A DNA stretch of 64,000 nt from a phage. The notes beneath the pieces are model-generated. The model saw nothing but the letters and a program-made list of their open reading frames with translations, was not told the origin of the DNA and did not search any database. Location: the NCBI GenBank assembly GCA_023551395.1, contig GCA_023551395.1_3945.1; one strand, written 5' to 3'. Positions 1-9,161 of this stretch are shown here, piece after piece. The translations under genes and the position numbers were made by a program. Every line of letters begins with the position of its first letter. Within the stretch, counting starts at the first letter, position 1.

Positions 1-28
1 AAAAAAACACGGTCTGGCAATGTATTAA

Positions 29-105
29 GGTTAGGAAGCACATAAGGTATGTGCGGTCGCCTGTTAAGCGAATGGCACAGGGTTCGAATCCCTGACTAAC
101 CGCCA
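29..105 (+). tRNA. tRNA-Asn (anticodon GTT)
   Basis: Cloverleaf read by hand: T-arm CAGGG-TTCGAAT-CCCTG, anticodon loop CTGTTAA, 6/7 acceptor pairs, encoded CCA. Confidence 0.7.
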
Positions 106-113
106 AATTAAAT

Positions 114-201
114 GTGTCGTTATCCCGTAGATGGTAGCGGTGGGGACTGTAAATCCCTTGTCATTGAGACTCGGTAGGTTCGACTCCTACACGGCACACC
201 A
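114..201 (+). tRNA. tRNA-Tyr (anticodon GTA), long variable arm
   Basis: Acceptor GTGTCGT/ACGGCAC, anticodon stem GGGGA/TCCCT with loop CTGTAAA, ~15-nt variable arm, T-arm GTAGG-TTCGACT-CCTAC, CCA encoded. Confidence 0.75.
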
Positions 202-207
202 AATAAA

Positions 208-285
208 GGTTATGTAGTTTAATCTGGTTAAAATACTCCCCTGTCACGGGAGATGATGAGGGTTCAAATCCCTTCGTAACCGCCA
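208..285 (+). tRNA. tRNA-Asp (anticodon GTC)
   Basis: Acceptor GGTTATG/CGTAACC, anticodon stem CTCCC/GGGAG loop CTGTCAC, T-loop TTCAAAT, CCA encoded. Confidence 0.8.
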
Positions 286-744
286 AATTATAATAAGTAT
301 TTCAAAATGATGTTTTGAGAGGGCTATTTAGCCCCTCCCTTAAAGAGTTCTTACGAGTATTCTTTAAAGGAGCAGAAGACCAAATTCAGCAAATATGTAT
401 GATATTTTCAAGCCAATTTAATTTTGAAAAAATTTAAAACTTGGTCTGGCTCAACAAATTTACAGAAGACCGTTTACAGCAAAAACTTAAACAATCTATT
501 TCTCCGGTAAAGAAAAGGCGAAGGTTCGATTCCTTCACTCGGCAGATGTCGAGTTGGTGTAATGGTAGCACTTAAGATGATAAACAACGGTCTGGTAATT
601 ATCTTTGTAGATAAGTTATTAAGCTTACCTGTGAGTATGCGACCACAAAGGGTGAAAGGGTAAATTCTAGATTTAAACCCAACAAGGCACATCGCTACAG
701 ACCTTAAGCAAGTCTGGGTAGCTTATCTACAAAGATAATTTAAT

Positions 745-820
745 GGAAGTGTAGCAGAATGGTGATGCGGCAGACTTTTAATCTGACAGGCGATGGGTTC
801 GAATCCCTCCACTTCTACCA
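745..820 (+). tRNA. tRNA-Lys (anticodon TTT), atypical weak T-stem
   Basis: Acceptor GGAAGTG/CACTTCT, 3-bp D-stem GCA/TGC, anticodon loop CTTTTAA, T-arm ATGGG-TTCGAAT-CCCTC with only 3 clean pairs, CCA encoded. Confidence 0.6.
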
Positions 821-824
821 AAAT

Positions 825-901
825 GGTTCAGTCGCAGATAAGGTAATGCAAGGGTCTCATAAGCCCTATGAATGTGGGTTCGATTCCCATCTGAACCTCC
901 A
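825..901 (+). tRNA. tRNA-Met (anticodon CAT; could be elongator, initiator or lysidine-Ile)
   Basis: Acceptor GGTTCAG/CTGAACC, anticodon stem AGGGT/GCCCT loop CTCATAA, T-loop TTCGATT, CCA encoded. Confidence 0.7.
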
Positions 902-902
902 A

Positions 903-978
903 GCTGGTATAGTTAAGAAGGTTATAACACTCCCCTGATAAGGGAACATCGGTGGTTCGATTCCACCTACCAGTACCA
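903..978 (+). tRNA. tRNA-Ile (anticodon GAT)
   Basis: Acceptor GCTGGTA/TACCAGT, anticodon loop CTGATAA, T-arm GGTGG-TTCGATT-CCACC, CCA encoded. Confidence 0.75.
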
Positions 979-993
979 ATTTCAATAAAGTTG

Positions 994-1022
994 TTGACAT
1001 TGAGATGTGACCACTTTATAGT
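994..1022 (+). promoter_or_regulatory. sigma70-like promoter (TTGACA, 17-bp spacer, TATAGT) inside the tRNA array
   Basis: Near-consensus -35 at 994-999 and -10 at 1017-1022 with a 17-bp spacer; followed by ~200 nt of non-tRNA leader before tRNA-Arg. Confidence 0.5.
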
Positions 1023-1226
1023 AACCTTAGTTTTCGTTGCGTAGCGTCTATTTTGCAAATTTAAAATAAATGCAAACGACAATGTTTTTCTGGCAGTAGC
1101 TTGATAGGCTAAACACCAGTGAGGTCTTCCAATCCCTCATCAAAGAATTTGGCGTACTCGCCCACGGTATGATTAATAAGGTGGGCATCTTTAAGGGCTT
1201 TCTAAGAGAGTCTTTAAAGATTAATG

Positions 1227-1302
1227 CACCCTTAGTTCAATTGGATAGAGCAACGGTCTTCTAAATCGTTAGTTACAGGTTCGAATCCTGTAGGGTGTGC
1301 CA
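1227..1302 (+). tRNA. tRNA-Arg (anticodon TCT)
   Basis: Acceptor GCACCCT/AGGGTGT, D-arm GTTC-AATTGGATA-GAGC, anticodon stem ACGGT/ATCGT loop CTTCTAA, T-arm ACAGG-TTCGAAT-CCTGT, CCA encoded. Confidence 0.8.
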
Positions 1303-1444
1303 AATAGTTAGCAGATTACTTATACGACCTAAGCGGGTCTTCCTGTAGGGAGGTGGTCTGTATCTCATGTTTTCCAGAACATGTAAATAATCTGAGAAGG
1401 GGCTTTACAGTGTTGAGATAATACGGTAAGCTTCGAATTATAGT

Positions 1445-1527
1445 ATGGGACGATGTTAAGACTCTAAGGCATGAGCAACGGCCTCCAAAACCGTTTCAAA
1501 GGGGTTCAACTCCTCCGTCCCATGCCA
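1445..1527 (+). tRNA. tRNA-Trp-like (anticodon CCA) with enlarged D-region
   Basis: Perfect acceptor ATGGGAC/GTCCCAT, anticodon loop CTCCAAA as in bacterial tRNA-Trp, G discriminator, T-loop TTCAACT; 26 nt between acceptor and anticodon stem instead of ~19. Confidence 0.5.
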
Positions 1528-1540
1528 AAGTCTTATTAGG

Positions 1541-1628
1541 GGTAGGTAGCGGCTAATGGCAGCCAAACAGTCTTGAAAACTGTTGCCACTGTAGAGATAC
1601 GGTGAGGGTTCGACTCCTTTACTTACCG
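1541..1628 (+). tRNA. tRNA-Ser (anticodon TGA), long variable arm
   Basis: Acceptor GGTAGGT/ACTTACC, D-stem GGCT/AGCC, anticodon stem ACAGT/ACTGT loop CTTGAAA, ~20-nt variable arm, T-loop TTCGACT. Confidence 0.65.
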
Positions 1629-1786
1629 CCTAATAAGATTTAAAGCCAAGCTTCATTCGGATGTTGCTTTGGTATCCCTCGTGTATTGTCGTACACGCAC
1701 AGTAAAGCACCTAGTAGGTGTCACGGAGAAGAGATAATATCAAGCTCTCCAAAGGTTCTAGTCACCGGATTAAACAAGACTATGCA

Positions 1787-1809
1787 AAGACCAAATTAGG
1801 TCTTTTTAG
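1787..1809 (+). terminator. intrinsic terminator-like hairpin within tRNA array
   Basis: Stem AAGACC/GGTCTT with loop AAATTA followed by TTTTT. Confidence 0.45.
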
Positions 1810-1886
1810 AGGGCTTCTAAGGTTATTACAGCTTGTTGTGGAACCTTGTTGCTTAGGTTCTTAGAAGTTCTCTAAAAAGATTTAAT

Positions 1887-1965
1887 GGGAGATTGACGGC
1901 AACTTGGTAGACCTATCTCGCTTAGAACGAGATGCTTGAGGGTTCGAATCCCTTGTCTCCTACCA
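1887..1965 (+). tRNA. tRNA with anticodon TAG (Leu by anticodon) but short variable arm
   Basis: Acceptor GGGAGAT/GTCTCCT, perfect anticodon stem TCTCG/CGAGA with loop CTTAGAA, 5-nt variable loop, T-arm GAGGG-TTCGAAT-CCCTT, A discriminator, CCA encoded. Confidence 0.6.
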
Positions 1966-1972
1966 AATTAAT

Positions 1973-2048
1973 GCAGGTGTAGCAAAATGGTTATGCGGCT
2001 GACTCTTAATCAGTAAGACGATGGGTTCAATTCCCTCCACCTGTACCA
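1973..2048 (+). tRNA. tRNA-Lys (anticodon CTT), paralogue of 745-820
   Basis: Acceptor GCAGGTG/CACCTGT, D-stem GCA/TGC, anticodon stem GCTGA/TCAGT loop CTCTTAA, same atypical T-arm ATGGG-TTCAATT-CCCTC, CCA encoded. Confidence 0.6.
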
Positions 2049-2054
2049 AACAAT

Positions 2055-2129
2055 GGGGTCATAGTTTATATGGTTAAAATTCGAGTTTTGCAAACTTGGG
2101 AACTGAGTTCAATTCTCAGTGACTCCACC
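2055..2129 (+). tRNA. tRNA-Ala (anticodon TGC)
   Basis: Acceptor GGGGTCA/TGACTCC giving the G3:U70 alanine identity pair, anticodon loop TTTGCAA, T-arm CTGAG-TTCAATT-CTCAG, CCA encoded. Confidence 0.8.
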
Positions 2130-2136
2130 AATTAGT

Positions 2137-2211
2137 GCATCCATAGTTTAAACGGGAAAATTACAGTCTTCCAAACTGAGGTTGAGGGTTCGATTCCCTC
2201 TGGATGCTCCA
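2137..2211 (+). tRNA. tRNA-Gly (anticodon TCC)
   Basis: Perfect acceptor GCATCCA/TGGATGC, anticodon loop CTTCCAA, T-arm GAGGG-TTCGATT-CCCTC, CCA encoded. Confidence 0.75.
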
Positions 2212-2218
2212 AATTAAT

Positions 2219-2294
2219 GCTCCTATCGTATAATTGGTTATTACGGTTGCCTTGTAAGCAACTTATCAGGGTTCGAGTCCTTGTGGGAGCACCA
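2219..2294 (+). tRNA. tRNA-Thr (anticodon TGT)
   Basis: Acceptor GCTCCTA/TGGGAGC, perfect anticodon stem GTTGC/GCAAC loop CTTGTAA, T-loop TTCGAGT, CCA encoded. Confidence 0.8.
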
Positions 2295-2390
2295 ATTCAG
2301 AGGTCAAGTGAAAGACCGCTTTGAGTCAACTGAAGACCGTAACAAATTCCACGGAGTTGAGTTAGCGGCACAACTCCAGACCTCTTTCAT

Positions 2391-2465
2391 ACTCGCTTAG
2401 TTTATATGGTAAAACATCACCCTTACAAGATGAAGAAAAAGGTTCAAGTCCTTTAGTGAGTACCA
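2391..2465 (+). tRNA. tRNA-Val (anticodon TAC), A1 start
   Basis: Acceptor ACTCGCT/AGTGAGT, D-stem GTTT/AAAC, anticodon loop CTTACAA with one C-A mismatch in stem, T-arm AAAGG-TTCAAGT-CCTTT, CCA encoded. Confidence 0.6.
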
Positions 2466-2466
2466 T

Positions 2467-2544
2467 GTTCCAGTATCCCAATTGGCAGAGGATGCAAGCT
2501 CAAACCTTGTACTAGTGACGGTTCGAATCCGTCTTGGAACACCA
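2467..2544 (+). tRNA. tRNA with anticodon CAA (Leu by anticodon) but short variable arm
   Basis: Acceptor GTTCCAG/TTGGAAC, anticodon stem GCAAG/CTTGT loop CTCAAAC, 6-nt variable loop, T-arm GACGG-TTCGAAT-CCGTC, A discriminator, CCA encoded. Confidence 0.6.
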
Positions 2545-2549
2545 ATTTT

Positions 2550-2625
2550 GCAGGATTAGTTCAAATGGATAGAGCAACAGTCTACGAAGCTGTTAATAGG
2601 GGTTCGAATCCCTTATCCTGCGCCA
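2550..2625 (+). tRNA. tRNA-Arg (anticodon ACG)
   Basis: Perfect acceptor GCAGGAT/ATCCTGC, D-arm GTTC-AAATGGATA-GAGC, anticodon stem ACAGT/GCTGT loop CTACGAA, T-loop TTCGAAT, CCA encoded. Confidence 0.8.
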
Positions 2626-2643
2626 GATAAGCAAGAGGAATTT

Positions 2644-2886
2644 ATGCAAACATTAATCGTCGTTGAACATGAAAATCCCAATAGTATTGAGTTTGTAAGG
2701 GTTCCCACTATAGATACCCACATTTTCTTGAAAGTCGGATGGGAATGCGACCCAATAAAAGTAGAAAGATTTATTGGTCATTGCTTTGGTGGAAGACAAC
2801 TTAAAAGCGTCAATTTTGAGACAATGTTACCAGAAAGCTCAGAAACAAATAATAATGCTTACCTCCTTACGAGGGTTAGACAATGA
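2644..2886 (+). CDS. hypothetical small protein inside tRNA array
   Basis: 80-aa ORF with GAGGA ribosome-binding site upstream of ATG; stop overlaps start of next ORF (ATGA). Confidence 0.4.
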   Translation: MQTLIVVEHENPNSIEFVRVPTIDTHIFLKVGWECDPIKVERFIGHCFGGRQLKSVNFETMLPESSETNNNAYLLTRVRQ

Positions 2887-3440
2887 GATACTTAAAATAT
2901 GTTTCATGGATTTTCTTAGCTTTGTTAGAACCATTTGCAGCAACCCTAGCAGTCATCTTAGCACCTTTCGTAGTTCCATTCTACAGTGAGAAGAAAGGAC
3001 ATCTACCTTTTGGATTCAGATGGATGGAGACCTATGACAACCCGATTGATGGTGATGAAGGCCACGTTAAAAGATGGGCTAAGATTAGAAAGATTGGTAA
3101 GCTGGGTGTCTACATGCAGAGAGTTGGATGGCTCTGGAGAAACAAAGCTTATAACTTCTCTTACCATGTATTAGGAAGAGATGTAAAAGATGTTACTAAG
3201 TGGAAAGGTAATATCAACGTAAGTTCTGACCCTGAAGATAATCAGACTGGTTATCTCCTAATGTGGAACAGTAATGCTTGGGGATTATTCGCTTTTATCC
3301 CATCAATTAAAGTCTTTGGTAAACAGTTTTACTGGAGAATTTATATTGGATGGAAACTAAAAAGTGTTGTCCCAGAAGAAAGAGCATTCTCAAGGGAAAG
3401 AGTTATGTTGGCATTCTTTATTCATCCACTGAGAAAGTAA
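2883..3440 (+). CDS. hypothetical membrane protein (Trp-rich) inside tRNA array
   Basis: 185-aa ORF with hydrophobic N-terminal segment; translationally coupled to upstream ORF; no recognisable catalytic motif. Confidence 0.5.
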   Translation: MRYLKYVSWIFLALLEPFAATLAVILAPFVVPFYSEKKGHLPFGFRWMETYDNPIDGDEGHVKRWAKIRKIGKLGVYMQRVGWLWRNKAYNFSYHVLGRDVKDVTKWKGNINVSSDPEDNQTGYLLMWNSNAWGLFAFIPSIKVFGKQFYWRIYIGWKLKSVVPEERAFSRERVMLAFFIHPLRK

Positions 3441-3448
3441 AGATTTAA

Positions 3449-3524
3449 AGGGGATTAGTTTACAAGGTTAAAACCTCGGTCTTTGAAATCGAAGAAGTTG
3501 GTTCAATTCCAACATCCCCCGCCA
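3449..3524 (+). tRNA. tRNA-Gln (anticodon TTG)
   Basis: Acceptor AGGGGAT/ATCCCCC with 1:72 mismatch, D-stem GTTT/AAAC, anticodon stem TCGGT/ATCGA loop CTTTGAA, T-arm GTTGG-TTCAATT-CCAAC, CCA encoded. Confidence 0.7.
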
Positions 3525-3526
3525 AT

Positions 3527-3605
3527 GCTCCATTACTCCAATTGGCAGAGAGGCCAGACTTAAAATCTGTGTTATGTATCGGTTCGAATCCGATATGGAG
3601 TACCA
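3527..3605 (+). tRNA. tRNA with anticodon TAA (Leu by anticodon) but short variable arm
   Basis: Acceptor GCTCCAT/ATGGAGT, anticodon stem CAGA/TCTG loop CTTAAAA, 7-nt variable loop, perfect T-arm ATCGG-TTCGAAT-CCGAT, A discriminator, CCA encoded. Confidence 0.6.
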
Positions 3606-3610
3606 AATTT

Positions 3611-3685
3611 AGCGGTATAGCATAACTGGCAATGCAACAGTCTCTGAAGCTGTCCTATTAAGGTTCAAATCCTTATGCCGCTGCC
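3611..3685 (+). tRNA. tRNA-Gln (anticodon CTG)
   Basis: Acceptor AGCGGTA/TGCCGCT, D-stem GCAT/ATGC, anticodon stem ACAGT/GCTGT loop CTCTGAA, perfect T-arm TAAGG-TTCAAAT-CCTTA, CCA encoded. Confidence 0.65.
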
Positions 3686-3717
3686 ACTTCTAAGGGTTCT
3701 TACGAGAGTCCTTAAAT

Positions 3718-3793
3718 GTGGCCTTATCATAAATGGTAATGACCCATGCTGTGAACATGGTCTATACGGGTTCAAATCCCGTAGGTCACCCCA
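3718..3793 (+). tRNA. tRNA-His (anticodon GTG)
   Basis: Acceptor GTGGCCT/AGGTCAC, perfect D-stem TCAT/ATGA, perfect anticodon stem CCATG/CATGG loop CTGTGAA, C discriminator, CCA encoded. Confidence 0.8.
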
Positions 3794-3798
3794 ATTTA

Positions 3799-3875
3799 TA
3801 GTCCAAGTAGCTTATATGGTTAAAGCGCGTGTCTGAAAAACATGAGAAGAGGGTTCAAATCCCACTGGACTACCA
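3799..3875 (+). tRNA. tRNA-Phe (anticodon GAA), irregular acceptor/D junction
   Basis: Anticodon stem CGTGT/ACATG loop CTGAAAA, D-stem GCTT/AAGC, T-loop TTCAAAT; exact 5' end ambiguous between 3799 and 3801. Confidence 0.6.
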
Positions 3876-3891
3876 ATTTCAAAGGTGCTTA

Positions 3892-4626
3892 ATGAAAGAG
3901 ATGACAGAACAAGGTAAGGAGATTTTTAATCTCTTAAAAACCGGTAAAGGGTTCTCTAACCCACTTATTACTGGTGCAGCAGTTCTCGGTGGAACCGTAG
4001 CTGCTTCTACATCACTTGTAAGCTCTATTAGTTCTGTAACAGACCCTACAATGAAGGAGAAACTTGTTGCTGCTGGACTTACAACAGTCCTTCTAAACAG
4101 CTTTACAACAAGCCTTACAAGCACTACAGCAACTACTAAGACCCTAACAGACTACGGTCAAAAGTCTATTGATGAGTTTTCATCACGTATGCAGGTAGCA
4201 AAGGGATACTCCAATGTTATGGGTGCAGCAGGAGAACAAGTTGGTTGTACACCATTCAGTGGTATTATGGGTGTTGCTACAGAGTATGGTCAAAAAGCTA
4301 TTAACATGATTAACAGTACACTAGATAGTGTTAATGGTGTATTAAGTGACTTACAAGATGCTATTGATAAGGGTCTTGATACTGTTTCTGATTTAGCTAA
4401 CCAAGCTGTCAGTAAGATTAATGAAGGTATCTCAAAGATTACCGCTTATGCAGATGAAGTTGTGCAGATGATTGAAGAAGAAGCTTCCCTTATTGCAGAG
4501 TACCTTAAAACGAATATCAATGGGTTCTTAGCAGGTATCTTACCAGACTGGTTTGATGATGCTTGTAAAACTGGTGTGATTGACACTATTGCAACACCAG
4601 AAATGAAGAACGCATTACAGAAATAA
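3892..4626 (+). CDS. hypothetical Ser/Thr/Ala-rich protein
   Basis: ORF-track frame 3829-4626, start moved to internal ATG at 3892 (AAAGG ribosome-binding site) because upstream part overlaps tRNA-Phe. Confidence 0.5.
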   Translation: MKEMTEQGKEIFNLLKTGKGFSNPLITGAAVLGGTVAASTSLVSSISSVTDPTMKEKLVAAGLTTVLLNSFTTSLTSTTATTKTLTDYGQKSIDEFSSRMQVAKGYSNVMGAAGEQVGCTPFSGIMGVATEYGQKAINMINSTLDSVNGVLSDLQDAIDKGLDTVSDLANQAVSKINEGISKITAYADEVVQMIEEEASLIAEYLKTNINGFLAGILPDWFDDACKTGVIDTIATPEMKNALQK

Positions 4627-4627
4627 T

Positions 4628-4720
4628 GGAAGATTAACCCTAAAAGGTAAGGGAGCAGTTTGCTAAACTGCCAGTAGCTGAGAAATCGGTGTACCAGTTC
4701 AAGTCTGGTATCTTCCTCCA
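4628..4720 (+). tRNA. tRNA-Ser (anticodon GCT), long variable arm
   Basis: Perfect acceptor GGAAGAT/ATCTTCC, perfect anticodon stem GCAGT/ACTGC loop TTGCTAA, ~21-nt variable arm, T-arm ACCAG-TTCAAGT-CTGGT, CCA encoded. Confidence 0.8.
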
Positions 4721-4724
4721 ATTT

Positions 4725-4799
4725 GAATCCGTGACAGAAATGGCTATGTGCCTGTCTGCAAAACAGGTTTATAAGGGTTCGAGTCCCTTCGGATTCTCC
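4725..4799 (+). tRNA. tRNA-Cys (anticodon GCA)
   Basis: Perfect acceptor GAATCCG/CGGATTC, perfect anticodon stem CCTGT/ACAGG loop CTGCAAA, T-arm AAGGG-TTCGAGT-CCCTT, CCA encoded. Confidence 0.75.
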
Positions 4800-4837
4800 A
4801 AGTTATTTTACTCTCTCTCAATTAAAATAATAATAAT

Positions 4838-4897
4838 GCCCTGCTATAAGTATTCTTCCTTTCGCTACCGAAGAGTATTTTTAGACAGGGCTTTTTT
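4838..4897 (+). terminator. terminator closing tRNA array (nested hairpin + T6)
   Basis: Outer stem GCCCTG/CAGGGC enclosing an inner hairpin, followed by TTTTTT. Confidence 0.5.
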
Positions 4898-4962
4898 ACA
4901 GAGTTATACTTTATAAGAAGGCTTATACAGTATGTCTCTGACGTACATTGTGGTTTCTCCTT

Positions 4963-4988
4963 GACGGTCTCTGTACCGTCTTTTTTAA
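4963..4988 (+). terminator. intrinsic terminator
   Basis: Stem GACGGT/ACCGTC with loop CTCTGT followed by TTTTTT; second of two tandem terminators. Confidence 0.6.
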
Positions 4989-5022
4989 GGGGGAACATGG
5001 TTAATTATTTGGAGAAAACATA

Positions 5023-5223
5023 ATGAGCGAGACCGTTTATAAAGAACTTTATGAAGCTAACAAGAAGCTAGAATTTATGCAGAATACTATCATGGCAATT
5101 GCAGACAGATTATCTGTAGCAACAGGCATTGATATTAAAGAAGCATCTATGGATGCACTTCTTGATGCTGTTGATGCAAAGTTCGAAGTTAAGAAAGAAG
5201 AGACTGCTACAGACTCTGAATAA
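5023..5223 (+). CDS. hypothetical small acidic protein upstream of terminase
   Basis: 66-aa ORF with GGAG ribosome-binding site; position immediately before terL. Confidence 0.4.
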   Translation: MSETVYKELYEANKKLEFMQNTIMAIADRLSVATGIDIKEASMDALLDAVDAKFEVKKEETATDSE

Positions 5224-8829: not shown

Positions 8830-9161
8830 TGGGAACATTAACTATTGATGGTAAGAATAAAATCCTCGCCACGCTAACCCCAACGACTATTATTTTACAC
8901 AATGTAGACCCAACGGCAGACCCTACAGCAAATAAGGTTACTCAGCCAGTGGCTATTTATTTTTCTGAACCGGATAATGGCTTAATTGCCTCAGAAGACA
9001 CAGTTAATATTACTGTCCCAGCTTCTGCAACGGTCTCACACTATAGCTTGTGGGATGCTAACGATAAATGCGTGGCAACTGGTGCTCTTAGCAAACCTCA
9101 ATTCTTCGCTGAAGAAGGTATCTATGTTATCTCTTCAGTCTCTGTAGATTTAAACAAATAG
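8829..9161 (+). CDS. hypothetical protein
   Basis: 110-aa ORF, TAATG coupling to upstream gene. Confidence 0.4.
   Translation: MGTLTIDGKNKILATLTPTTIILHNVDPTADPTANKVTQPVAIYFSEPDNGLIASEDTVNITVPASATVSHYSLWDANDKCVATGALSKPQFFAEEGIYVISSVSVDLNK

What the first reader, a model, noticed from the sequence alone, without database searches (positions are those of the whole stretch)
500..572. Orphan T-arm/acceptor 3' module followed by a 5'-half-like module with no complete tRNA
Positions ~520-544 form a perfect T-arm (GAAGG-TTCGATT-CCTTC) followed by an acceptor 3' strand ACTCGGC and discriminator A, but no matching 5' acceptor strand or D/anticodon arms lie upstream. Immediately downstream (548-571) is GTCGAGT-TG-GTG-TAATGGTAG-CAC, which looks like an acceptor 5' strand plus D-arm and is nearly complementary to the preceding ACTCGGC. 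This could be a degenerate tRNA remnant, a tRNA-like minihelix, or a split or permuted tRNA.
Basis: seen in the sequence. Interest (0 to 1): 0.45.

Follow-up and report, generated by a model that had tools for sequence, protein, structure and literature searches.

The report
Phage Y-RNA-like permuted tRNA mimic
The two "orphan tRNA halves" are one folded RNA: a circularly permuted tRNA look-alike of the Y-RNA (YrlA) kind. It is conserved in Felix O1-like phages and other tRNA-rich phages beside a very divergent Ro60-like protein gene, so it is a concrete candidate RNA partner for a phage protein recently reported to counter a bacterial defence.

Summary
Window 520-571 holds a perfect T arm, a 7-bp acceptor-like helix closed by a 4-nt loop, and a perfect D arm. 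An anticodon-arm-like hairpin lies just upstream (499-515). A covarying stem (460-474 with 586-598) closes the whole element.

The window is a Felixounavirus tRNA cluster. Across Ounavirinae genera the acceptor helix changes completely but always stays paired.

The arm order (V, T, closed acceptor, D) is that of bacterial YrlA Y RNAs. In near-identical relatives a 471-aa gene ends about 1 kb upstream on the same strand. Pfam sees only DUF2828 and DUF7788 in it, but its predicted structure matches only Ro60 structures over its full length.

I found the same RNA architecture near this gene in 12 of 74 distant phage contigs, always on the gene's strand. A model built from three of those contigs picks window 516-573 as the top hit in the window (E 9e-7). 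Rfam's YrlA model scores several distant copies (E down to 1e-5, below its cut-off) but misses the window copy. The canonical Ro60-binding motif is replaced by a stem followed by UUCAGCAA.

Verdict: a new variant of a known kind. It is not a pseudogene, a decoding tRNA or a tmRNA. Expression and protein binding are untested.

The parts
460..598 (+). The whole proposed RNA (about 139 nt): a closing stem enclosing a permuted tRNA-like domain
   Evidence: The MFE fold of 460-602 gives exactly this structure. The RNAalifold consensus of 10 Ounavirinae copies agrees. 246 of 253 matching phage records cover at least 80% of 430-612.
460..474 (+). 5' strand of the closing stem: outer UUAC (460-463), unpaired AGA (464-466), inner AGACCGUU (467-474)
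   Evidence: It pairs with 586-598. The outer 4 bp covary among paralogous and orthologous modules: UUAC/GUAA, GAGC/GCUC, UGAC/GUCA, UUGC/GCAA. The inner helix covaries among distant phages.
475..482 (+). Conserved single-stranded motif UACAGCAA (family consensus roughly UUCAGCAA), directly 3' of the stem's 5' strand
   Evidence: It is present at this position in all 21 elements examined, including 13 metagenomic ones. The motif was not part of the search criterion.
499..515 (+). Hairpin UUUCU-CCGGUAA-AGAAA: it resembles an anticodon arm and sits where YrlA has its 'V' arm. It is followed by AGGC (516-519).
   Evidence: Rfam's tRNA model aligns it as anticodon arm plus variable loop. It is paired in 8 of 10 Ounavirinae copies, and the loop sequence is not conserved.
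520..536 (+). T arm GAAGG-UUCGAUU-CCUUC (G53, U54, U55, C56, A58 and C61 all present)
   Evidence: 100% paired in 10 genomes. GGTTC, A and CC are invariant across 19 elements.
537..554 (+). Closed acceptor-like stem: ACUCGGC, loop AGAU, GUCGAGU (7 bp)
   Evidence: Three fully compensated versions occur in Ounavirinae: ACTCGGC/GTCGAGT, ACACGT/GCGTGT and ACCCTTC/GAAGGGT.
555..571 (+). U8-G9 linker and D arm GUGU-AAUGGUA-GCAC (A14, G18, G19 and A21 present)
   Evidence: 100% paired and invariant in Ounavirinae. Matched by the metagenome-derived model R1.
586..598 (+). 3' strand of the closing stem: AACGGUCU (586-593), unpaired G594, GUAA (595-598)
   Evidence: In distant copies the 3' strand ends in CU and is followed by GAUAA-like sequence.
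370..452 (+). Paralogous smaller stem module with no tRNA-like insert: GAGC/GCUC, AGA/G loop, AGACCAA/UUGGUCU, AUUCAGCAA
   Evidence: It has the same stem architecture with compensated outer and inner pairs. It is conserved in relatives.
9..20 (+). 3' strand (ACGGUCU-G-GCAA) of a further module. Its 5' half lies upstream of the window.
   Evidence: Phage LTH02, 99% identical over window 286-745, has UUGC-AGA-AGACCGU...ACGGUCU-G-GCAA. Felix O1 has UUAC.../...GUAA.
597..741 (+). Adjacent second structured RNA domain: a closing stem of about 23 bp and an inner hairpin with a UUAAGCAA loop
   Evidence: RNAalifold on 6 genomes gives 30 pairs, 11 of them with compensatory changes.

Best explanation
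Window 460-598 encodes a small non-coding RNA of the YrlA (Y RNA-like) type.

Shown by sequence, folding and comparison:
- A long-range stem joins its two ends.
- Inside the stem, the arms of a tRNA occur in circularly permuted order: an anticodon-/variable-arm-like hairpin, a T arm, an acceptor stem closed by a loop, and a D arm.
- The T- and D-loop nucleotides needed for the tRNA elbow are present.

Inferred:
- It is made as part of the phage tRNA operon transcript and released when the flanking tRNAs are processed.
- The stem, its AGA/G internal loop and the adjoining UACAGCAA motif bind the phage's Ro60-like ring protein. This is the DUF2828/DUF7788 protein, the homologue of Felix O1 ORF42 and Bas63 gp130. 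In relatives its gene ends about 1 kb upstream on the same strand.
- The tRNA-like domain acts as a handle or decoy for tRNA-recognising host factors, such as RNase P, modification enzymes, exonucleases or tRNA-directed defence nucleases. In this way it would tether or gate the Ro60-like protein during infection.
- The smaller stem modules nearby (370-452; 9-20 and its upstream half) and the 597-741 domain are probably further RNA ligands of the same protein.
For: Fold:
- The MFE and RNAalifold structures agree.
- The acceptor helix has three fully compensated versions across Felixounavirus, Suspvirus and Mooglevirus.

YrlA architecture:
- Chen et al. 2014 describe the order V, T, 'acceptor' stem-loop, D, flanked by a Ro60-binding stem and encoded within 4 kb of Ro60 on the same strand (PMC4201824).

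Partner gene:
- Felix O1 ORF42 has only DUF2828 and DUF7788 in Pfam.
- Its AlphaFold model (pLDDT 89, pTM 0.88) has Ro60 structures as its 11 best PDB matches, aligned over the full length (E 3e-8 to 1e-6, TM up to 0.66).
- A DxSxS motif is invariant in the C-terminal half, the part that also matches vWA domains in the fold search.
- In LTH02, 99% identical to the window over 286-745, the gene ends 546 nt before the position of window base 1.

Co-occurrence:
- 74 distant contigs (38-47% protein identity) were searched within +/-5 kb of the gene. 12 carry orphan T-acceptor-D modules, as does one further 143-kb contig (L013, about 51% protein identity), all on the gene's strand and mostly within 1.5 kb.
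- All 16 representative elements tested (3 Ounavirinae, 13 distant) have a closing helix of at least 7 bp ending just before a CAGCAA-type motif. Such a helix occurs in 19% of shuffles.
- 12 of 13 distant copies keep a G15:C48 or A15:U48 Levitt pair. This was not a search criterion.

Links between families:
- Rfam's YrlA model scores distant copies at 25-41 bits, E down to 1.4e-5.
- Model R1, built from three distant copies, finds window 516-573 as its best hit.

Literature:
- Bas63 gp130 is 98% identical to the modelled protein. A preprint reports it as Ro60-like and as a counter to the Ppl defence, and guesses that some neighbouring 'tRNAs' may be Y RNAs (PMC11482910).
Against: - There are no expression, end-mapping or binding data.
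- Rfam's YrlA model does not hit the window copy even at E <= 10. All related hits are below the gathering score of 69 bits.
- The canonical Ro60-binding motif GNCGAAN0-1G is absent.
- The partner protein has no sequence-level match to Ro60, either as a single sequence or as a profile.
- The Levitt pair is non-canonical in the window (A15/C48) and varies among Ounavirinae.
- Only about one in six distant loci shows the tRNA-like module. One closer relative (L011, 62% protein identity) keeps the small module and the 597-741 domain but lacks the tRNA-like domain.
- gp130 alone, expressed from a plasmid or from T7, counters Ppl. That phenotype therefore does not need this RNA.
- The partner gene is outside the window.
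- I did not test whether such modules are absent from phages that lack the protein.
Confidence: 0.72

Rival explanations
1. It is a tRNA-like processing or decoy element that works without the Ro60-like protein. For example, it could be an RNase P or RNase punctuation signal in the tRNA operon transcript, or a decoy that soaks up host tRNA-directed nucleases or modification enzymes.
For: A 7-bp acceptor helix stacked on a T arm is the minimal RNase P substrate; M. smegmatis YrlA with a 7-bp stem is cleaved by RNase P (PMC4201824). The element sits inside a tRNA operon with no promoter or terminator of its own. gp130 counters Ppl without phage RNAs.
Against: This does not explain the conserved closing stem and UUCAGCAA motif. 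It does not explain the repeated stem-only modules. It does not explain the recurrent position beside the Ro60-like gene in unrelated phages. In Suspvirus the acceptor helix is a closed 6-bp stem with a UACG tetraloop, which is a poor processing site.
Confidence: 0.13
2. It is a genuine permuted or two-piece tRNA. RNase P would cut at the acceptor 5' strand and the 3' strand would be trimmed or extended to CCA. The resulting two-piece, tRNA-shaped molecule would then be aminoacylated and used, in translation or as a charged decoy.
For: All four arms are present in Ounavirinae. Suspvirus has a canonical anticodon loop, CUGGUAA (Thr GGU). In 4 of 16 independent lineages, N73 followed by CCA sits directly after a 7-bp acceptor 3' strand: Michonne/HP1 GCCA, L057b GCCA, L087a ACCA, L087c CCCA. 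The chance expectation is about 0.25 lineages. M. smegmatis YrlA is cleaved by RNase P and receives CCA in vivo.
Against: The window copy has no CCA (ACTCGGC-A-GAT). The anticodon-like loop is not conserved, and it has only 6 nt in Felix O1. Many distant copies have no anticodon-like arm at all. Closed tetraloops (UACG, GAAA, GUAA) in several lineages argue against obligatory cleavage. The open junction at position 26/27 carries a long stem.
Confidence: 0.07
3. It is a functionless scar: the 3' part of one decayed tRNA gene followed by the 5' part of the next.
For: It lies in a dense tRNA array, where tandem tRNA junctions give a similar T-arm/D-arm signal. Model R1 also hits 16 such junctions in the window, at lower scores. 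It may well have originated this way.
Against: The two 'unrelated' acceptor strands pair perfectly and co-vary through three versions. The element is conserved in 246 of 253 related records. The same architecture, with closing stem, motif and Levitt covariation, recurs in unrelated phages.
Confidence: 0.04
4. It is a permuted (two-piece) tmRNA gene.
For: The gene order is the same: T arm and acceptor 3' strand first, then acceptor 5' strand. Rfam gives weak tmRNA-type hits elsewhere in the cluster (920-1104 and 1036-1225).
Against: There is no G3:U70 pair (the pairs are G1-C72, U2-G71, C3-G70). There is a full D arm. ARAGORN finds no tag reading frame and calls no tmRNA. No Rfam tmRNA hit overlaps 460-600.
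Confidence: 0.01

Closest known systems
YrlA, the bacterial and phage Y RNA-like tRNA mimic (Rfam RF02553; Chen et al. 2014, PMC4201824; S. Typhimurium, M. smegmatis, mycobacteriophages, CcrColossus, Bacillus phage G)
   Same: - The arm order is the same: V, T arm, closed 'acceptor' stem-loop, D arm, enclosed by a stem formed by the two ends.
- T- and D-loop nucleotides are conserved.
- Relatives show G15:C48 / A15:U48 covariation.
- It is encoded on the same strand close to a Ro60-type gene.
- There are several Y-like RNAs per locus.
- Some lineages have a 7-bp acceptor stem plus CCA, like M. smegmatis YrlA.
- The Rfam model gives significant sub-threshold scores to family members in other phages.
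   Different: - The window copy is not detected by the Rfam model.
- The GNCGAAN0-1G Ro60-binding motif is replaced by a stem with an AGA/G internal loop followed by UUCAGCAA.
- Long A-rich linkers (24 and 14 nt) separate the stem from the tRNA-like core.
- The hairpin before the T arm looks like a complete anticodon arm.
- The partner protein belongs to DUF2828/DUF7788 and is recognisable as Ro60 only by structure.
- The RNAs are interleaved with real tRNA genes.
Yrl1 and Yrl2 of Thermus phage phiLo with phage Ro60 (PMC12135203; PDB 9KOP, 9L5Y)
   Same: It is a phage-encoded Ro60-fold protein with adjacent phage-encoded Y-like RNAs. 9KOP is the best structural match of the Felix O1-type protein model.
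   Different: The phiLo RNAs are described as stem-bulge-stem RNAs with a CGAA motif, with no tRNA-like domain mentioned. They lie upstream of the gene. The phiLo protein is a recognisable TROVE-domain protein.
Circularly permuted tRNA genes of Cyanidioschyzon merolae and other algae and archaea (own knowledge: Soma et al. 2007)
   Same: The 3' portion of the tRNA is encoded upstream of the 5' portion, joined through the acceptor ends.
   Different: Those genes mature, through a bulge-helix-bulge splicing step and a circular intermediate, into normal decoding tRNAs. Here the ends form an ordinary long stem, the bacterial host has no such endonuclease, and the anticodon loop is not conserved.
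Two-piece tmRNA from permuted ssrA genes (own knowledge: Keiler et al. 2000)
   Same: The gene order is permuted in the same way, with the acceptor 3' strand (plus CCA in some relatives) preceding the acceptor 5' strand. Maturation into two base-paired pieces is possible.
   Different: There is no G3:U70 pair, no tag reading frame and no pseudoknots, and a true D arm is present.

Membership tests
YrlA / bacterial Y RNA | A tRNA-like domain in the order (V)-T arm-'acceptor' stem-loop-D arm | tested here: met
   Window 499-571 has this order. It is supported by folding and covariation. The definition is from PMC4201824.
YrlA / bacterial Y RNA | Conserved T- and D-loop nucleotides that allow tRNA tertiary contacts, including a covarying 15:48 Levitt pair | tested here: inconclusive
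   U8, A14, G18, G19, A21, G53, U54, U55, C56, A58 and C61 are present. The Levitt pair is A15/C48 in the window and varies among Ounavirinae. It is G:C or A:U in 12 of 13 distant copies.
YrlA / bacterial Y RNA | The 5' and 3' ends form a helix that carries the Ro60-binding site | tested here: met
   460-474 pairs with 586-598. The helix covaries among modules and phages. The control gives 19% of shuffles against 16 of 16 observed.
YrlA / bacterial Y RNA | GNCGAAN0-1G motif near the 5' end | tested here: not met
   It is absent from 455-500. The conserved elements there are CAGAAGACC and UACAGCAA.
YrlA / bacterial Y RNA | Encoded within about 4 kb of a Ro60 orthologue, on the same strand | tested here: inconclusive
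   This holds in relatives: the gene ends about 1 kb upstream in LTH02, and the arrangement is the same in Felix O1 and Bas63. However, the gene lies outside the window; tblastn finds no copy inside it. The protein is Ro60-like by structure only.
YrlA / bacterial Y RNA | Score at or above the Rfam RF02553 gathering threshold (69 bits) | tested here: not met
   There is no hit at E <= 10 on the window element. Distant family members score 24.7-40.9 bits.
YrlA / bacterial Y RNA | Physical association with the Ro60 protein, and tRNA-type modifications (psi55, D) | not testable with these tools
   This needs co-immunoprecipitation, gel shifts and modification mapping.
Circularly permuted tRNA gene | The 3' portion lies upstream of the 5' portion, with the acceptor strands complementary | tested here: met
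   537-543 pairs with 548-554. Three compensated versions exist.
Circularly permuted tRNA gene | A bulge-helix-bulge junction at the outer ends for endonuclease and ligase maturation | tested here: not met
   The ends form 4 bp, then a 3x1 internal loop, then 8 bp. This is not a 3-4-3 bulge-helix-bulge.
Circularly permuted tRNA gene | A conserved, functional 7-nt anticodon loop and an encoded or addable CCA end | tested here: not met
   The loop varies and has 6 nt in Felix O1. There is no CCA in the window. CCA is present in Mooglevirus and three metagenomic lineages only.
Permuted (two-piece) tmRNA | G3:U70 alanine identity pair and a tag reading frame | tested here: not met
   The pairs are G1-C72, U2-G71, C3-G70. 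ARAGORN's tmRNA search is negative. There is no Rfam tmRNA hit at 460-600.
Ro60 / TROVE protein (the neighbouring gene in relatives) | A HEAT-repeat ring plus a C-terminal vWA domain with a MIDAS motif | tested here: met
   The 11 best PDB matches of the AlphaFold model are all Ro60, aligned over the full length. The DxSxS motif is invariant.
Ro60 / TROVE protein (the neighbouring gene in relatives) | Sequence match to the TROVE domain or to Ro60 | tested here: not met
   Pfam gives only DUF2828 and DUF7788. There are no PDB sequence hits by phmmer or by profile.

The most novel reading that the evidence does not exclude
In at least some lineages the RNA is not just a mimic. Mooglevirus and three metagenomic phages encode N73-CCA directly after a 7-bp acceptor strand. 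In these, RNase P cleavage and 3' trimming could give a two-piece, CCA-ended, circularly permuted tRNA held on a Ro60-like ring. It could then be aminoacylated and act as a charged decoy or as a specialised translation or defence-evasion factor. The Felixounavirus copy in this window would be a closed-loop derivative of that molecule.
Probability: 0.07. Interest if true: 0.9.

Novelty: new variant of a known kind. Interest (0 to 1): 0.55.

Why it matters
**New reach for a known class.** Y RNAs that mimic tRNA are known from bacteria and a few phages, but their function is still unclear. These results suggest that a large, unrecognised branch of Ro60-like proteins (DUF2828/DUF7788) travels with tRNA clusters. 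More than 2,500 homologues were found, many on phage contigs. In a subset of these phages the protein also travels with its own YrlA-like RNAs, which use a different stem motif.

**A testable system.** A preprint reports that the Felixounavirus protein (Bas63 gp130) counters the Ppl defence system, and its authors only guessed that Y RNAs might hide among the tRNAs. Fixing the RNA to exact coordinates turns that guess into direct experiments in a genetically tractable E. coli phage.

**Annotation.** It also corrects database annotations. The element is annotated as a 131-nt tRNA-Thr in REP6, and minus-strand ORFs are drawn over it in Bas63.

Tried and rejected
- **Group I intron or permuted intron-exon arrangement** around the halves. 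No Rfam intron hit in 1-5200.
- **tmRNA.** Rejected; see the rival explanations.
- **tRNA with an intron**, as annotated in REP6. ARAGORN -i calls nothing in the window.
- **Coding ORFs over the element** (434-571 minus strand, 441-575 plus strand, 474-692 minus strand; Bas63 0137/0138). Rejected because relatives differ by 1-, 2- and 4-nt indels and by compensatory stem changes.
- **Own promoter or terminator.** None on the + strand.
- **Full-length covariance model.** MAFFT alignments of full-length distant elements were too poorly registered to use. I used only a gapless 3-sequence core alignment.
- **Loose scans.** Scans for 'stem plus CAGCAA' and for the 8-mer T[TA]CAGCAA are only modestly strand-enriched (137 vs 44 and 133 vs 75). 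They are too noisy to count modules.
- **Neighbouring genes.** Pfam on neighbouring window ORFs found no RNA-repair genes.
- **Literature.** Searches found no expression data for Felix O1-like phages and no prior description of this RNA.

Full report
**What is in the sequence.** The window opens inside a phage tRNA cluster: ARAGORN finds 23 tRNAs between 29 and 4800, and none between 286 and 744.

The finding's features are all present:
- T arm GAAGG-TTCGATT-CCTTC (520-536)
- ACTCGGC (537-543)
- loop AGAT (544-547)
- GTCGAGT (548-554), fully complementary to ACTCGGC
- TG (555-556)
- D arm GTGT-AATGGTA-GCAC (557-571)

Rfam's tRNA model aligns 487-537 as anticodon arm, variable loop and T arm, at 22 bits, below its threshold.

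A long-range stem encloses everything: UUAC (460-463) with GUAA (595-598), an AGA/G internal loop, and AGACCGUU (467-474) with AACGGUCU (586-593). The minimum-free-energy fold of 460-602 gives exactly this five-helix structure. The z-score of that fold is modest (-1.57), so the case rests on comparison with other genomes, not on folding energy.

**Where it comes from and how it varies.** Window 286-745 matches 252 phage records, mostly at 95-99% identity. Nearly all are Ounavirinae (Felixounavirus, Suspvirus, Mooglevirus). 246 of 253 records cover at least 80% of 430-612.

The acceptor-like helix exists in three fully compensated forms:
- ACTCGGC/GTCGAGT with loop AGAT (Felixounavirus)
- ACACGT/GCGTGT with a UACG tetraloop (Suspvirus, Sf14, ESh19, pEC-M719)
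- ACCCTTC/GAAGGGT with loop GCCAAACA (Michonne, HP1)

On a 10-genome alignment this helix, the T arm and the D arm are 100% paired, and three acceptor pairs changed on both sides. The covariation score is 0.121 against 0.052 +/- 0.010 in shuffles (0 of 500 reach it), and at most 0.079 when the partners are slid. RNAalifold predicts the same structure without guidance.

Indels of 1, 2 and 4 nt and the stem-wise substitutions rule out the small ORFs that overlap the element.

**What it resembles.** The arm order is V hairpin, T arm, closed 'acceptor' stem-loop, D arm, inside a stem made by the two ends. This is how Chen et al. 2014 describe YrlA, the tRNA-mimicking Y RNA of bacteria and some phages. 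YrlA is encoded within about 4 kb of Ro60 on the same strand. In M. smegmatis, YrlA has a 7-bp acceptor stem, is cleaved by RNase P and receives CCA (PMC4201824).

**The neighbouring gene.** In Felix O1, Bas63, LTH02 and other relatives a 471-aa gene sits directly upstream of the tRNA cluster on the same strand.

In LTH02, which is 99% identical to the window over 286-745, the gene ends 546 nt before the position of window base 1. That is about 1 kb before the element. The window itself holds no copy (tblastn).

Sequence methods do not identify the protein. Pfam sees only DUF7788 and DUF2828. PHROGs calls it 'RNA-binding protein'. Neither the sequence nor a 53-sequence profile matches any PDB chain.

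Structure does identify it. An AlphaFold model (pLDDT 89, pTM 0.88) has eleven Ro60 structures as its eleven best PDB matches, aligned over the full length. They include Thermus phage phiLo, Xenopus, human and Deinococcus Ro60 (E 3e-8 to 1e-6, TM up to 0.66). Isolated vWA domains follow far behind. The family keeps an invariant DxSxS motif in its C-terminal half, the part matched by those vWA domains.

A preprint independently calls Bas63 gp130 Ro60-like; that protein is 98% identical to the one I modelled. The preprint shows that gp130 counters the Ppl defence and speculates that some neighbouring 'tRNA genes' may be Y RNAs, without naming any (PMC11482910).

**Test in unrelated phages.** I searched for relatives of the protein in IMG/VR. 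The search found 589, and 80 loci with +/-5 kb flanks were kept. Of these, 75 are divergent (38-47% identity), counting as 74 contigs because two carry identical elements.

I scanned them for a T arm followed directly by a perfect hairpin and then a D arm, and checked the hits against ARAGORN. The scan and the R1 search described below together found orphan modules, not part of any tRNA, in 12 contigs. Together with a 143-kb contig fetched earlier, these are L013 (two), L022, L027, L029, L032, L038, L039, L057 (two), L079, L087 (three) and L092/L093. Every one is on the gene's strand, and most lie within 1.5 kb of the gene.

Three features that were not part of the scan recur in them:
- All 16 representative elements tested (3 Ounavirinae, 13 distant) have a closing helix of at least 7 bp. 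Such a helix appears in 19% of shuffled controls.
- That helix ends 0-4 nt before a (U)UYCAGCAA motif and is followed by GAUAA-like sequence.
- 12 of 13 distant copies have a G15:C48 or A15:U48 Levitt pair.

Rfam's YrlA model scores six of these copies over its full or core length: 40.9, 39.2, 38.9, 36.7, 28.7 and 24.7 bits, with E down to 1.4e-5. All are below the 69-bit gathering score.

A covariance model built from three of them, with no Ounavirinae sequence, returns window 516-573 as the best hit in the 64-kb window on both strands. The score is 32.2 bits, E 8.6e-7, with all 16 pairs canonical. The remaining hits are junctions between adjacent tRNAs and score lower.

**More than one module.** The same stem recurs in the tRNA spacers without a tRNA-like insert. 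Its pattern is an outer 4 bp, an AGA/G loop, AGACCNN/NNGGUCU, and then UUACAGCAA or AUUCAGCAA. It occurs at window 370-452, and between tRNA-Glu and tRNA-Met and between tRNA-Met and tRNA-Asn in relatives. Window 9-20 is the 3' strand of the last of these.

The outer pairs covary: GAGC/GCUC, UGAC/GUCA, UUAC/GUAA in Felix O1 against UUGC/GCAA in LTH02 and the window. The two pairs next to AGACC also covary: AA/UU against GU/AC.

Directly downstream, 597-741 forms a further domain with a stem of about 23 bp and 11 compensated pairs.

There is no promoter or terminator signal inside the region on the + strand. These RNAs are therefore probably cut from the tRNA operon transcript when the flanking tRNAs are processed. 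This step is inferred.

**Interpretation.** The best reading is a YrlA-type Y RNA whose stem and motif dock on the phage's Ro60-like ring, and whose tRNA-shaped domain engages tRNA-recognising host factors.

The structure and its evolutionary conservation are shown. Binding, processing and function are inferred from context and from the YrlA precedent.

Several points weigh against a simple assignment to YrlA:
- The Rfam model misses the window copy.
- The GNCGAA motif is absent.
- The Levitt pair is not kept in Ounavirinae.
- Only about one in six distant loci shows the tRNA-like module, and L011 lacks it.
- gp130 counters Ppl on its own.

For these reasons I file it as a new variant of the Y-RNA/YrlA kind, not as a member of RF02553.

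**Alternatives.**
- A dead tandem-tRNA scar is excluded by the covariation.
- A tmRNA is excluded by the missing G3:U70 pair and tag frame.
- A decoding permuted tRNA is unlikely because the anticodon-like loop drifts and the window copy lacks CCA.
- One observation keeps a cleaved, CCA-ended two-piece form alive for some lineages. Four of 16 independent lineages encode N73-CCA exactly after a 7-bp acceptor strand, where about 0.25 would be expected by chance.

**Limits.**
- No expression or binding data exist in the searched literature.
- I did not test whether such modules are absent from phages that lack the protein.
- MAFFT could not align full-length distant elements well enough for a full-length model.

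Noticed in passing
window 597-741: A second structured RNA domain lies directly after the tRNA-like element. It has a closing stem of about 23 bp with 11 compensated pairs across 6 genomes. Its inner hairpin (about 704-722) has a conserved UUAAGCAA/UUUAGCAA loop, which echoes the UUCAGCAA motif.
   Followed up: partly
window 370-452 and 9-20: Stem-only modules with the same AGA/G-loop stem and CAGCAA motif lie in the tRNA spacers. There are four such modules per Felix O1-type genome, counting the tRNA-like element as one. The one at 9-20 is cut by the start of the window.
   Followed up: partly
window 313-372: Two conserved hairpins (GAGAGGGC...GCCCCTCCC and CCTTAAAGA...TCTTTAAAGG) lie between tRNA-Asp and the first stem module. 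The whole 286-745 spacer folds with z = -4.2.
   Followed up: no
window 920-1225: Rfam gives sub-threshold hits to tmRNA_permuted (920-1104, 29.6 bits) and tmRNA (1036-1225, 15.9 bits) in the tRNA-free gap after tRNA-Ile. A near-consensus sigma-70 promoter lies at 994-1022.
   Followed up: no
L001 700-830 (REP6) and L095 2949-3223 (Bas63): Public records annotate the element as a 131-nt tRNA-Thr(GGT) (REP6) or cover it with two small minus-strand hypothetical ORFs (bas63_0137 and bas63_0138). Both are probably mis-annotations.
   Followed up: partly
L012 about 9003-9150 (Yersinia phage vB_YenM_P778); L013 8213-8288: L012 has a tRNA-like sequence with a G3:U70 acceptor stem (GCGGGUG/CACCUGC) and a long internal insert. 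L012 8795-8885 is a stem module that holds only a T arm. L013 8213-8288 scores as the tRNA-like part of tmRNA (31.6 bits), although ARAGORN calls nothing there.
   Followed up: no
L011-L014 and L027-L092: The DUF2828/DUF7788 Ro60-like gene lies next to a tRNA cluster in very different phages, including a KVP40-like Vibrio phage and contigs of 140-250 kb. It is often preceded by a DUF5681 gene in Ounavirinae-like genomes.
   Followed up: partly
L038 10696-10922: A group I intron (Rfam 71.5 bits, above its threshold) lies about 4.3 kb downstream of the Ro60-like gene in a metagenomic phage contig.
   Followed up: no
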